From the NCBI GenBank assembly GCA_025497365.1, contig GCA_025497365.1_4955.1: a stretch of 57,325 bases of DNA, one strand, 5' to 3'. The DNA is from a phage. Positions 27,001 through 30,000 of the stretch are shown one piece after another (the first letter of the stretch is position 1; every line of letters starts with the position of its first letter). A program made the position numbers.

Positions 27001-30000
27001 AGTATCACCGTGTTGAACCTGAACACCGCTAACCAGGTATATAACGTAACAGTTGCGGACTATGTAAAACAGAACGGTGTGTTGTCTGAAAACTTCTTTG
27101 AAAAACTGTGGAATCAGGAATATACACCAGAAGGTGTTAAGTTCGTGGCTAACGTTCTTATGCTGGACTGGAAACTGATTGGTGAAGATGACAAACCGGA
27201 ACCATTCAGTGTTGAAGAAGCTGTTGAACTGTTAAGTGATGAACGTTTTGGTCAGGTGATCTACAGTCGTGTTATTCAGTTTGCAATTAATTCCGCATTT
27301 TTCCAGGACGAATGGGAAAAACAGATTGAAAAAAACTGATCGACTTCCTCTTGTGGAACGATAAGACAGACGGGGACGACCTGGACTGGGTTACACAAGG
27401 GGCGGCTGCACGTGGTATATCTGTTCCGGTTGTTGTACAGAAACGTCCTAAACTGCGACCTGATGCTGTTTTTTACTGGAATGCTTTTTTGGATTTGATA
27501 GGTGCTGATTGGGTTGCTTGTGAGCGGTATGCGCGGGTGTATAACGTTGATGTACAGTTCCTATGGAAATTATTGGTAGCATTGCGGTCTGCACGTGTTG
27601 TCGAGATGAAGAAAAATAAACATAAGCCCGGTTAGTTCCGGGCTTTTTCATTTACGTAGTCGAGGATTGCAGGAGAGTATTTAAACCACTCTGTAGCACC
27701 GTCAAAGCCTTTGAGACGCGCATTAAGTTCACGGAAGACCTTGTGTACCTCTTGTTCCAGTTTGTAAGCATCAGCGCCCTGTGGAAACGGGTACGACACG
27801 AGTTTAACCACGGGGTGTGTTGTTTCGCGTTGTAGTTGTCGTAGTCGCCGTTTTAAGTCGTTTGTGATACCGACTTTAAGCAGAGTAGGGCACTTTTTAT
27901 CGTCAGCTAACACGTAGAGTGTACCGGGTTCTGACGGGTTAAAACCTGTTTCTGCACACTGGGGACAACCAGCTTTCATTGATGTGTGATTATTAGGTAT
28001 TTGTTCAAACACACCGTGTTCAGGGCAGATGATTTTTACAGGGGTGGAATTGTTAACATACTCCATCAACGAATAGTCGTAACGGTCCCTGTGAACTTCG
28101 CGAGCACGAGTAATGAATTCTTCGGAGGATAAACGTCTTTGTTCAGACAATTGTTCCCAAGCACATTGTAGGCAACCTGCTTTTTGCTGCAAGTGACTAT
28201 ATGGACGTTGTTCAAACATTCCGTGTATCGGACAAACGATTTGAACGTTAGAACGAGCGTTCACATACTCCACCAATGAGTAATCGTAACGATCCCCGTG
28301 AATTTCACGAGCGCGAGTGATAAATTCTTCAGTGGTTAATTGTTGATTTCCTGCACAGAATAAACACTTGCGTCCTTTTAAATGATTATTAGGAATTTGT
28401 TCAAACACCCCGTGTATAGGGCAGATGATTTTCACAGGTGTGCGCCAATTCACATACTCCACTAGCGAGTAATCGTATTTGTGCCCATGAACTTCACGGG
28501 CACGTGTGATAAACTTCTCTGTGGTTAAACGTTTCCTACTCATCTTATTTGTCGCTTTTTAACACAGCCCAGATTAACGCACCTAACCAACCGATGAATG
28601 TCCAACCCGCAAAGATGTTAAGTAAAATAATTGCTGTTTGTTGTTTATGTTTAACGTTAATCGCGATGAGTGCTGGGATCAGATATACAGCAGCGATTAA
28701 GAAAAGAATGATGAAAGTAGCCATTTTGTAACCCTCCTTTGTTTTGATGTTTGTAGGTTACACGTCTTTGTGTAATCCGTCAAGAATTATTTTAAACATT
28801 TGTCGCTTTTTAGACCCGTGTTAAACTGTGTACATGCTTCGTGAAAAGGTTAACCACAATGGCACAGTATCCGATTGATATAAAGATAGACACTGGTAAC
28901 GCTGACAGAAATCTTAACAGTCTTAATAACCAGTTAGACCAAACAGCTAATTCTGCAAAATCTGCTGCACAAGCGGCAAACACTTTATCAAAAAGTGAAC
29001 AGCAAGCTGCAAAATCTGCACAAGTAATGGCGTCAAATACTGGTAACGCTACATCATCTTTAAAGACGATGGCATCTGGCGTAAATCTTGCAACAAATGC
29101 CGTTCGTGGTTTTATGGCAATAGGTGCGGTGTCTTCTGCTATTGAGTTAGGAAAAGCGTTTATTGTTGCGGGTGATGCAGCTAATCAACTCGAAGCTCGT
29201 ATTGCAAGATTGACCGGGAGTACATCATCAGCCGAACAAACATTTCAAACACTCGCGGATATTGCCTCTAAAACAGGTGGTGGTCTTGCTGATACTGAAC
29301 GTTTATGGGAAACCTTATCGTCATCATTAAAGGATAGCGGCGCAACAAACGATCAGATATTACGATTAACTGAAACACTTCAAAAAATAGGTCGTGTTGG
29401 TGGTTCATCTGCTGAAGAAATGTCTAACGCATTACGTCAGTTTGGTCAGTCAATTTCATCTGGTGTAGTTCGTGCAGAAGAATTTAACAGCATTGTTGAA
29501 CAGATGCCAGAACTGGCAAGACAGATGGCTGCTGGTTTAGGTATTTCAATGGGTGAGTTACGTCAGCAAATGCTGAATGGTGAACTTACAGCGGAACAAG
29601 CATTGAACGCTATCATTCGTCAAACACAAAATGTTGATGAAGAATTTAGCAAATTGCCACGGTCTTTAGATCAGGCCACAAATTCGTTATCTGTATCGTT
29701 AGCCACGTTTGTTGCAAGCATGAATGATGTGACTGGAGCATCAAATCTTGCTGTAAATGCTATTGATACACTTACAGGTTTCATCAATAAATTAGGCGAT
29801 GATTCAACAACAACTGCTGATAAATTGTGGTCAATAGCTGGCGTAATATCTAAGTTACAACCTGGTGCTATCGGAGCATCCCTTGCCGATCTGGTCTGGT
29901 CAAATGATGATGTAAATAATGCAAAAGCGTACAATGACCAGGTTGACAGATTTGTTAAAGCATCTGCTGCTGGATACGAACAAGCTAAAAAAAACCGTGA

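What the first reader, a model, noticed from the sequence alone, without database searches (positions are those of the whole stretch)
27632..28796. Opposite-strand moron in the tail module: superinfection-immunity-like protein plus a triple-repeat T5orf172-like protein
Between the chaperone and the tape measure gene, on the opposite strand, a promoter copy drives a 59-aa membrane protein with a GWTxIGWxxALIWA motif (as in superinfection immunity proteins) and a 303-aa protein with three zinc-ribbon-like repeats and a T5orf172/GIY-YIG-like C-terminus, closed by a bidirectional terminator. The arrangement is typical of a self-contained mobile or exclusion cassette; the nuclease-like protein could be a homing endonuclease or an exclusion nuclease.
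Basis: partly seen in the sequence, partly recalled or inferred. Interest (0 to 1): 0.62.

Follow-up and report, generated by a model that had tools for sequence, protein, structure and literature searches.

The report
Phage exclusion gene plus homing endonuclease

Summary
The window is a Sashavirus/9NA-like siphovirus. Window 27655-28816 is an insert that is absent from relatives such as Sasha, PDP46, AVIO78A and 9NA.

It carries, on the minus strand:
- a copy of the phage's own 26-bp promoter box (14 copies in the window);
- a 59-aa Imm_superinfect protein (PF14373, E 3e-17);
- a 303-aa protein with three CxxH...CxxC DUF723 zinc-finger repeats and a T5orf172 domain, whose model has a GIY-YIG fold and an intact catalytic Arg/Glu.

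This architecture is the putative homing endonuclease (HEG) class described by Barth et al. 2023. Bas82's GenBank record already annotates the same gene pair.

New points:
- The terminator belongs to the backbone.
- Across 17 carriers the imm gene is always intact, while the HEG shows repeat loss, nonsense and frameshift mutations, and start loss.
- A gutted second HEG lies at 18795-19172.
- The cassette is completely linked to a chimeric, 116-aa-shorter tape measure protein. Its N-terminal module, like the Imm, is closest to Skatevirus homologues.

Because T4 Imm binds its tape measure protein, that linkage is the one interesting lead. Verdict: new member of a known kind, modest interest.

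The parts
27655..28816 (.). Inserted cassette DNA (about 1.16 kb) relative to the empty site of Sasha/PDP46, where about 11 bp (TTATGGTTAAC) lie instead
   Evidence: blastn and alignment of the junctions
27632..28543 (-). 303-aa putative homing endonuclease with three DUF723 zinc-finger repeats and a C-terminal T5orf172/GIY-YIG domain. Residues 298-303 and the stop codon are encoded by backbone/terminator DNA
27947..28543 (-). Three tandem CxxH...CxxC zinc-finger (DUF723/CapR-like) repeats, aa 1-199; presumed DNA-recognition array. Hypervariable among carriers (71-86% nt identity)
   Evidence: Invariant ligands; repeated helix-hairpin-helix units in the model; identity table
27653..27931 (-). 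T5orf172 nuclease domain, aa 205-297, with Y210, K223-x-G225, R233 and E263 (aligns with validated catalytic E180 of ICP1 Odn) and the TEWF motif at 284-287
   Evidence: PMC8263062
28545..28724 (-). 59-aa two-helix membrane protein of the T4 Imm (Imm_superinfect) family. It has a strong SD (AAAGGAGGG), and its stop codon is 1 nt from the HEG ATG
   Evidence: PF14373 3e-17, phrog_1039 2e-18; BLASTP against T4 Imm E 2e-7, with W50 equivalent W41 conserved; hydropathy; sequence
28733..28796 (-). Promoter-like box plus 5'UTR: -35 TTGACG at 28778-28783 and a weak -10 TAACCT at 28755-28760. It is one of 14 copies of the phage's 26-bp box and a near-exact twin of 14294-14357
27624..27645 (.). Hairpin terminator of the chaperone operon. 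It is backbone, not cassette, and is used convergently by the cassette transcript. It overlaps the 3' ends of both convergent ORFs
   Evidence: annotated as a terminator in Sasha and AVIO78A
28859..30055 (+). Variant 5' part of the tape measure gene (aa 1-399), found in every cassette carrier and not alignable with the 971-aa TMP of empty-site relatives. aa ~27-388 are Skatevirus-like. It contains the only TM-like segment (aa 77-108) and the TMP_3 domain

Best explanation
This is a two-gene moron. It is transcribed leftward from a copy of the phage's own sigma70-type promoter box and ends at the pre-existing chaperone terminator.

Gene 1 encodes a small inner-membrane protein of the T4 Imm family. 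It most likely protects the infected cell from superinfection by blocking the tape-measure-mediated DNA entry of incoming phages.

Gene 2 is probably translationally coupled to gene 1. It encodes a free-standing homing endonuclease in which three zinc-finger repeats read a DNA target and a T5orf172 (GIY-YIG-type) domain cuts it. In mixed infections it would cleave cassette-less relatives near the chaperone/tape-measure junction. Recombinational repair would then copy in the nuclease gene together with imm and the adjoining non-homologous 5' part of the tape measure gene.

The nuclease behaves as a selfish, decaying passenger, whereas imm is retained.

Shown: the domain identities, the fold, the conserved catalytic and zinc-binding residues, the insertion polymorphism, the paralogues at other sites, the decay series and the linkage to the TMP variant.

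Inferred: cleavage, homing, the target site, the exclusion function, and promoter activity and timing.
For: Families and fold. Catalytic residues: E263 aligns with Odn E180, whose mutation abolishes sequence-specific cleavage (PMC8263062). R233, Y210 and K223/G225 are invariant.

The architecture matches the described T5orf172 HEG class: DUF723/CapR zinc fingers, proximity to TAC/TMP genes, recombination between intragenic repeats, and position at boundaries of genetic exchange (PMC10448857).

Mobility signatures:
- A precise empty site in Sasha, PDP46, AVIO78A, 9NA, KpnBU9, L032 and L033.
- Homologues at other sites: 9NA gp46, beside the portal gene in L014, upstream of the head genes in L013, and downstream of TMP in Skatevirus BS5.
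- More than 1,100 phage records carry the family, often in several copies.

HEG life cycle: of the 15 carriers compared, 5 have an intact three-repeat gene. L026 and L027 add two more intact ones. The rest show in-frame repeat loss (PJ16, L017, L019), nonsense (PJ16; L018/L024), frameshift (BDX09P1) or loss of the start codon (L016, L021-L023). imm remains intact at 97.8-100% nt identity. A gutted relic lies at 18795-19172.

Imm: it is homologous to T4 Imm, and T4 Imm blocks entry by binding the TMP (bioRxiv 10.64898/2026.03.06.709160).

Linkage: 17 of 17 carriers have the 855-aa TMP and 7 of 7 empty sites have the 971-aa TMP.
Against: No experiment exists on either protein of this phage group. 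Homing by any T5orf172 HEG had not been verified experimentally as of PMC10448857. The target site is unknown.

Linkage to the TMP variant follows from the lack of homology between 27655 and 30055, whatever drives the cassette's spread. The imm/TMP-N block is only slightly more conserved than the left flank (98-99% against 96-97%), so a recent HEG-driven sweep is not demonstrated.

T4 Imm R33 is not conserved here (V24), and the protein is 24 aa shorter than T4 Imm. Most substitutions seen in imm among GenBank relatives are non-synonymous, though conservative, so purifying selection is not formally shown. Ten of the carriers were retrieved by exact Imm identity, which biases the 'imm intact' count.

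The -10 element is weak (3 of 6).
Confidence: 0.72

Rival explanations
1. Two-layer exclusion cassette. The nuclease is not selfish but a domesticated weapon, like ICP1 Odn. It cuts the DNA of competing phages or satellites that get past the Imm membrane block, and the two genes act together.
For: The genes are co-transcribed and probably translationally coupled. Odn shows that a T5orf172 nuclease can be exapted for defence (PMC8263062). There is a weak match of the T5orf172 domain to the candidate defence family PDC-S57 (E 1e-6). Hypervariable DNA-binding repeats would also fit an arms race over targets.
Against: The nuclease is broken or truncated in at least 6 of 17 natural carriers while imm is intact. 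Close paralogues sit at other sites with no imm partner. Imm homologues in Skateviruses have no adjacent nuclease. The PADLOC hit covers only the generic nuclease domain.
Confidence: 0.15
2. The 303-aa protein acts mainly as a sequence-specific DNA-binding regulator. This would resemble the PLE CapR repressor or I-TevI autorepression, with transcription of nearby tail genes or of its own promoter controlled by binding rather than by cutting.
For: CapR-type and DUF723 zinc-finger arrays are DNA-binding modules, and CapR is a repressor derived from such HEGs (PMC10448857). There are faint CapR and DUF4379 matches. The gene sits between divergent and convergent tail transcription units.
Against: All catalytic-motif residues are invariant, including E263 and R233. 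The GIY-YIG fold is retained. Natural alleles lose the DNA-binding repeats and keep the nuclease domain as often as the reverse, and phages lacking the gene have the same tail operon.
Confidence: 0.06
3. The 59-aa protein is not an exclusion factor. It would be a small membrane protein with another role, such as modulating lysis timing or membrane potential, and its family name would be misleading here.
For: Only T4 Imm has been tested in this family. Identity to it is 28% over 47 aa. The R33 equivalent is not conserved, and the protein lacks the N- and C-terminal tails of T4 Imm. It has no PADLOC or NCBIfam hit.
Against: The score is well above the Pfam gathering threshold. The W50 equivalent and the GW..IGW...W core are conserved. 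In both Sashavirus and Skatevirus the gene sits in the tail module next to TAC/TMP genes, not in a lysis cassette.
Confidence: 0.2

Closest known systems
Bas82_0047 'endonuclease' and Bas82_0048 'superinfection immunity protein' of Escherichia phage KarinMuster (PQ850612); the same pair occurs in PJ16, Sashavirus 536P12 and BDX09P1
   Same: Orthologous cassette at the same site, with the same order and strand. Imm is 97% identical and the flanks are 93-99% identical.
   Different: The nuclease is only 79% identical in protein sequence because its zinc-finger repeats have diverged or been shuffled. PJ16 has two repeats plus a premature stop, and BDX09P1 has a frameshift. None of these has been studied experimentally.
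T5orf172 putative homing endonucleases of ICP1 and other phages (Barth, Dunham & Seed 2023, PMC10448857), and ICP1 Odn/gp88 (PMC8263062)
   Same: A C-terminal T5orf172 domain with conserved Arg/Glu, N-terminal tandem DUF723/CapR-type zinc fingers, position next to TAC/TMP genes at a boundary of genetic exchange, and recombination between intragenic repeats. tblastn gives 27% identity to ICP1 tcgB.
   Different: A different phage lineage that the paper does not cover. A single HEG rather than a flanking pair. The cargo includes an accessory imm gene as well as part of an essential gene. Odn uses a RepA_N domain instead of zinc fingers and acts in defence.
T4 Imm (gp imm, P08986), the founding member of PF14373
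   Same: A small helical inner-membrane protein with the conserved core Y-x-x-P...W-x-x-I-G-W...W. T4 W50, which lies at the TMP interface, aligns with W41.
   Different: 59 aa against 83 aa, with 28% identity. R33 is not conserved. The host phage is a siphovirus, and the gene lies directly upstream of the tape measure gene rather than among the DNA-metabolism genes. Function is untested.
T4 Seg-type free-standing GIY-YIG homing endonucleases (for example SegA) and I-TevI
   Same: A GIY-YIG-fold nuclease domain joined to modular DNA-binding domains, an intergenic free-standing gene, and optional presence among relatives.
   Different: The nuclease domain is C-terminal rather than N-terminal. 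It belongs to the T5orf172 subfamily. DNA binding is through repeated CxxH...CxxC zinc fingers rather than NUMOD/HTH modules.
HK97 gp15 moron
   Same: A small inner-membrane exclusion protein encoded by a moron within the tail gene region. It is reported to act through the tape measure protein (cited; PMC3594210).
   Different: No sequence relationship was tested or is claimed. HK97 is temperate and gp15 is expressed from the prophage, whereas this phage group is virulent.

Membership tests
Imm_superinfect (PF14373; T4 Imm family) | Profile match above the curated gathering score | tested here: met
   62.6 bits against a cut-off of 27.9, E 3e-17, covering profile positions 1-42 of 42; phrog_1039 'immunity to superinfection' at 2e-18
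Imm_superinfect (PF14373; T4 Imm family) | Direct similarity to T4 Imm and conservation of residues shown to matter for exclusion (W50, R33) | tested here: inconclusive
   BLASTP gives 28% identity over 47 aa, E 2e-7. W50 aligns with W41, which is conserved. R33 aligns with V24, which is not conserved, although it is R in Skatevirus homologues
Imm_superinfect (PF14373; T4 Imm family) | Small integral inner-membrane protein | tested here: met
   Two hydrophobic helices (aa 3-23 and 31-54) separated by a basic loop (KHKQQ), by hydropathy only
Imm_superinfect (PF14373; T4 Imm family) | Blocks DNA entry of superinfecting phage by binding the TMP | not testable with these tools
   Requires plating-efficiency, DNA-entry and co-purification experiments
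T5orf172 / GIY-YIG superfamily nuclease | Profile match above the curated gathering score | tested here: met
   PF10544 at 53 bits against a cut-off of 20; PF13455 at 47 bits against 22.3
T5orf172 / GIY-YIG superfamily nuclease | GIY-YIG alpha/beta fold | tested here: met
T5orf172 / GIY-YIG superfamily nuclease | Catalytic Arg and Glu and the (G)IY...(Y)IG-like motifs are present | tested here: met
   LYV (Y210), KVG (K223/G225), R233 and E263 are invariant in 22-24 homologues. E263 aligns with the validated E180 of Odn
T5orf172 / GIY-YIG superfamily nuclease | Metal-dependent DNA cleavage | not testable with these tools
   Needs an in vitro nuclease assay with an E263A control
DUF723/CapR-type zinc-finger DNA-binding repeats | Repeated profile matches and four conserved zinc ligands per repeat | tested here: met
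   PF05265 at 3e-18 with three stretches. CxxH...CxxC is invariant or at least 90% conserved in each repeat. The model shows three equivalent helix / beta-hairpin / helix units with pLDDT of about 85-94. Metal binding itself was not tested
Free-standing homing endonuclease gene (HEG) | Optional presence at a precise site between genes that are adjacent in close relatives | tested here: met
   Seven empty-site and 17 filled-site genomes or contigs; junctions mapped to 27654/27655 and 28816/28817
Free-standing homing endonuclease gene (HEG) | Related copies at different sites or in different genomes, with a cycle of invasion and degeneration | tested here: met
   Paralogues at four other sites. 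A decay series at this site. A relic at 18795-19172
Free-standing homing endonuclease gene (HEG) | Cleaves the HEG-less allele and is over-inherited in crosses | not testable with these tools
   No experimental data exist; not verified for any T5orf172 HEG as of 2023
Moron (independent transcription unit inserted between adjacent genes) | Own promoter and terminator, and absent from relatives | tested here: inconclusive
   The promoter-like box lies within the insert. The terminator is borrowed from the backbone. Absence from relatives is shown. Promoter activity was not tested and the -10 is weak
Known anti-phage defence systems (PADLOC) | Match to a defence-system protein model | tested here: not met
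   Only a weak domain-level hit of the T5orf172 domain to candidate PDC-S57 (E 1e-6, 26.6 bits); no hit for the Imm-like protein

The most novel reading that the evidence does not exclude
The imm gene and the adjoining tape-measure N-terminal module (TM-like segment aa 77-108 plus the TMP_3 domain) may form a co-adapted 'exclusion factor plus target domain' pair. Both have their closest outside relatives in Skatevirus-group phages, and they are inherited together in every carrier. The T5orf172 endonuclease sits at the block's left boundary and could be its vehicle. If so, this would be a natural case of a homing endonuclease spreading a superinfection-exclusion gene together with the DNA-entry domain it acts on. 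It would also extend the T4 Imm-TMP interaction to siphoviruses.
Probability: 0.2. Interest if true: 0.65.

Novelty: new member of a known kind. Interest (0 to 1): 0.34.

Why it matters
On its own this is an ordinary, already-annotated gene pair. Its value is as a tractable natural system. Bas82 (KarinMuster) is in the public BASEL collection and infects E. coli K-12 with restored O16 antigen, and empty-site relatives exist. T5orf172 homing has never been shown experimentally, and it could be tested directly in crosses between these phages.

The natural series of intact, repeat-deleted and broken alleles offers ready-made variants for mapping how the zinc-finger repeats set target specificity.

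The strict linkage of an Imm-family gene to a swapped tape-measure module gives a concrete prediction. A recent report says T4 Imm binds its tape measure protein. If that mechanism extends to siphoviruses, escape mutants from this Imm should map to TMP aa ~48-399.

Tried and rejected
1. Sequence search of the 303-aa protein against PDB chains found nothing at E <= 1, so a fold search on a model was needed.

2. I first assumed that E285 of the TEWF motif was the catalytic Glu. Alignment with Odn shows that the validated Glu corresponds to E263.

3. I considered en bloc transfer of imm plus TMP from a Skatevirus. This was rejected as a simple single event. In Skateviruses the TAC gene lies between imm and TMP, whereas here the TAC genes are Sashavirus-type. 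Related TMP-N modules also exist without a nearby imm (L028-L031).

4. I looked for evidence of a recent HEG-driven sweep. The imm/TMP-N block (95-100%) is more conserved than the downstream TMP part in three relatives (88-92%). It is only marginally more conserved than the upstream flank, so the result is suggestive, not decisive.

5. The 59-aa ORF after the HEG paralogue in L014 is unrelated to Imm.

6. The 114-aa membrane ORF driven by the twin promoter has no family match.

7. The generic sigma70 scan did not flag the cassette promoter. The promoter argument rests on the 14-copy box.

8. Zeng et al. 2019 on 9NA-like phages (PMC6819911) is not held in the library, so any prior description of the promoter box or of 9NA gp46 could not be checked.

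9. My first TMP translation was off by one base and was redone.
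Full report
**What is in the sequence**

The window is a 9NA/Sasha-like siphovirus. Its closest relative is Escherichia phage KarinMuster_Bas82, at 93% identity over 3 kb, followed by Sashavirus 536P12, BDX09P1 and PJ16. Two minus-strand ORFs lie between the tail assembly chaperone genes (26917-27339 and the frameshift extension 27351-27635; phrog_8233) and the tape measure gene (ATG 28859 to 31426; PF20155). They are 28545-28724 (59 aa) and 27632-28543 (303 aa).

The 59-aa protein matches Pfam Imm_superinfect at E 3e-17, with 62.6 bits against a cut-off of 27.9. 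It also matches PHROG 1039, 'immunity to superinfection'.

The 303-aa protein has three DUF723 matches (E 3e-18) followed by T5orf172/MUG113 (E 5e-14 and 3e-12). It matches PHROG 681, 'endonuclease', at 1e-82.

**Insertion and its boundaries**

Sasha, PDP46, AVIO78A, 9NA and Klebsiella phage Kpn BU9 have the chaperone gene, a terminator and then the tape measure gene directly. Junction alignment puts the insert at 27655-28816, about 1.16 kb, replacing about 11 bp of the empty site.

The hairpin at 27624-27645 folds at -14.9 kcal/mol on the + strand and -16.8 on the - strand. It is backbone sequence, because it is present and annotated as a terminator in phages that lack the cassette. The last six codons and the stop codon of the 303-aa ORF lie in this backbone DNA. 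Consistent with that, paralogues at other sites have different C-terminal tails.

**Expression signals**

Upstream of the 59-aa gene lies the 26-bp box TTTAAAATAATTCTTGACGGATTACA. It occurs 14 times in the window, against 0 expected by chance. One copy sits upstream of another opposite-strand small ORF at 26515-26778.

The whole 64-bp promoter-to-RBS segment (28733-28796) is duplicated, with one mismatch, at 14294-14357. There it precedes a 114-aa membrane ORF.

The -35 element is consensus-like (TTGACG), but the -10 (TAACCT) is weak, and a generic scan did not flag it. Promoter function is therefore inferred from repetition and position.

The imm-like gene has a strong SD. The nuclease ATG follows the imm stop codon after one base and has no SD of its own, which suggests co-transcription and translational coupling.

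**The nuclease**

An AlphaFold2 model built from a 22-sequence alignment has a mean pLDDT of 84. Its pTM is low (0.40), as expected for beads on a string. It shows three equivalent helix / beta-hairpin / helix units and a C-terminal alpha/beta domain.

Each repeat has invariant or near-invariant CxxH...CxxC ligands. In the nuclease domain, Y210, K223, G225, R233, E263 and T284-E285-W286 are invariant.

Alignment with ICP1 Odn (gp88) places its E180 on E263 here. Odn is a T5orf172 protein shown to cut DNA sequence-specifically, and E180A abolishes that activity (PMC8263062). The catalytic machinery therefore looks intact in the window's allele.

**Comparison with the described class**

Barth, Dunham and Seed (PMC10448857) described T5orf172 putative homing endonucleases whose N-terminal parts are tandem CapR/DUF723/DUF4397 zinc fingers. 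These genes cluster next to essential genes, including TAC and TMP. Their intragenic repeats recombine, and they mark the boundaries of exchanged segments, with 'cargo' carried between or beside them.

The paper states that homing had not been verified experimentally, and it does not cover 9NA-like or Skatevirus phages.

The family is very widespread. More than 1,100 phage records match, often with several copies per genome, including the ICP1 'tcgB putative homing endonuclease' genes. The protein database returns 7,399 hits at E <= 1e-10, many with longer DUF723 arrays or other C-terminal domains.

**Evidence that it behaves as a mobile, selfish gene in this lineage**

- 9NA gp46 is a 37%-identical homologue at a different tail-module site.
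- A Sashavirus-like contig carries a 77%-identical (nucleotide) paralogue beside the portal gene.
- Another contig carries an intact 372-aa paralogue immediately upstream of the head genes. At exactly that position the window has a 125-aa ORF (18795-19172) that keeps only the N-terminal ~80 aa and the C-terminal tail. It is a gutted relic.
- Skatevirus BS5 has a homologue just downstream of its TMP.

I compared the alleles at the chaperone/TMP site in 15 carriers:
- Five have an intact three-repeat gene.
- PJ16 lost one repeat by an in-frame crossover at 'VKIIC' and also has a premature stop.
- BDX09P1 has a frameshift inside the nuclease domain.
- Two contigs have a stop that removes the last 15 residues.
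- One has an in-frame single-repeat gene, and one has a two-repeat gene with a new start.
- Four have lost the start codon.

Two further IMG/VR genomes carry intact copies.

The zinc-finger region is 71-86% identical in nucleotide sequence among carriers, while its neighbours are 96-99% identical.

In all of these genomes the 59-aa gene is intact, at 97.8-100% nt identity. One caveat applies: ten of the contigs were retrieved by exact Imm identity, and the few substitutions seen in GenBank relatives are conservative but non-synonymous. Purifying selection on imm is therefore plausible but not proven.

**The Imm-like protein**

It has two hydrophobic helices separated by a basic loop. It aligns with T4 Imm at 28% identity over 47 residues (pairwise E 2e-7).

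A 2026 preprint reports that T4 Imm binds the helical-bundle domain of the T4 tape measure protein, and that W50A and R33A weaken exclusion. W50 corresponds to the invariant W41 here. R33 corresponds to V24 here, but to R in Skatevirus homologues.

Outside Sashaviruses, the roughly 50 best matches (48-58% identity) are essentially all Skatevirus-group phages. There the gene sits in a minus-strand moron cluster just upstream of the TAC-TMP genes.

**Linkage to a chimeric tape measure protein**

Every carrier has an 855-aa TMP, and every empty-site genome has a 971-aa TMP. That is 17 of 17 and 7 of 7.

The two TMP types are about 90% or more identical from residue 400 onward, and 77% identical over the first 47 residues. 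In between they are only about 30% identical.

The window's residues ~27-388 are 52-56% identical to Skatevirus TMP N-termini. The C-terminal half has no Skatevirus similarity.

The variant block contains the only strongly hydrophobic segment of the protein (aa 77-108), followed by the TMP_3 domain. This parallels the TM-then-bundle order described for T4.

Because 27655-30055 has essentially no homology with the alternative allele, the cassette cannot be separated from this TMP segment by homologous recombination. This alone explains the linkage. It also means that any homing event would have to co-convert the whole 2.4-kb block.

The block is 95-100% identical among carriers. The TMP region just downstream drops to 88-92% in three of them. 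That is compatible with horizontal spread of the block but does not prove it.

Related TMP-N modules also occur without a nearby imm (L028-L031). A functional Imm-TMP pairing therefore remains a hypothesis.

**Alternatives considered**

A cooperative 'membrane block plus exclusion nuclease' system has the Odn precedent and a weak PADLOC domain hit. It fits poorly with the frequent natural inactivation of the nuclease and with imm-less paralogues.

A purely regulatory DNA-binding role is unlikely, because the catalytic residues are conserved.

A non-exclusion role for the small membrane protein cannot be excluded without experiments.

**Verdict**

Both genes belong to known families, the nuclease architecture and its genomic behaviour have been described, and GenBank already annotates the same pair in Bas82.

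I rate it a new member of a known kind, with modest interest. The main lead worth following is the strict association of an Imm-family gene with a swapped tape-measure entry module, bounded by a homing endonuclease.

Noticed in passing
window 18795-19172 (+): A 125-aa ORF that is a gutted relic of a second T5orf172 homing endonuclease. It keeps the N-terminal ~80 aa (a Cys-less DUF723-like repeat) and the C-terminal tail of intact 308-372-aa homologues (P0117, P0072, P0100). Contig L013 has the intact gene at the same position, with flanks about 96% identical to the window; the window lacks roughly 850 bp of the gene's core.
   Followed up: yes
window, 14 sites (e.g. 1523, 3922, 6074, 14332, 18443, 18753, 26827, 28771, 46968, 51829): A 26-bp promoter-like box, TTTAAAATAATTCTTGACGGATTACA, occurs 14 times against 0 expected by chance. 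It has a consensus-like -35, an A/T-rich upstream part and variable -10 elements. It looks like the phage's standard promoter class. Whether it has been described for 9NA-like phages could not be checked, because the reference paper is not held.
   Followed up: partly
window 14294-14357 (-) and 13941-14285 (-): A near-exact 64-bp twin (one mismatch) of the cassette's promoter and 5'UTR. It drives a 114-aa ORF with a hydrophobic N-terminus and no match in Pfam or NCBIfam. The duplication suggests that the cassette's expression signals were copied within this phage lineage.
   Followed up: partly
window 26515-26778 (-): A second opposite-strand moron between the major tail protein and chaperone genes. 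It is 87 aa (phrog_27467, unknown function), with its own promoter box (26827-26852) and a terminator at 26489-26506. The slot is polymorphic: a 207-aa gene in Sasha, a 55-aa gene in AVIO78A, and empty in PJ16, BDX09P1 and several contigs.
   Followed up: partly
window 28859-31426 (+): The tape measure protein is a chimera of 855 aa, 116 aa shorter than the 971-aa protein of empty-site relatives. At about 1.5 angstrom per residue, this predicts a tail about 17 nm shorter. By my hydropathy threshold, the 971-aa variant has no TM-like segment comparable to aa 77-108 of the window's protein.
   Followed up: partly
L008 (9NA) 2318-3214 (-); L014 4001-5080 and 7032-8582; L012 (BS5) 3291-4166 (-): Related T5orf172 endonuclease genes occupy at least four other sites in 9NA-like and Skatevirus genomes. 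These include 9NA gp46 (annotated as hypothetical) and a copy directly downstream of the TMP in BS5, which also has an imm gene upstream of its TAC-TMP genes. L014 additionally encodes a 516-aa protein made of DUF723 repeats only.
   Followed up: partly
window 26917-27339 and 27351-27635 (+): The chaperone pair matches the two halves of one PHROG profile (phrog_8233 positions 5-140 and 147-250). In Sasha, AVIO78A and 9NA it is annotated as a programmed frameshift product (G/GT type). The slippery site in the window was not examined.
   Followed up: no
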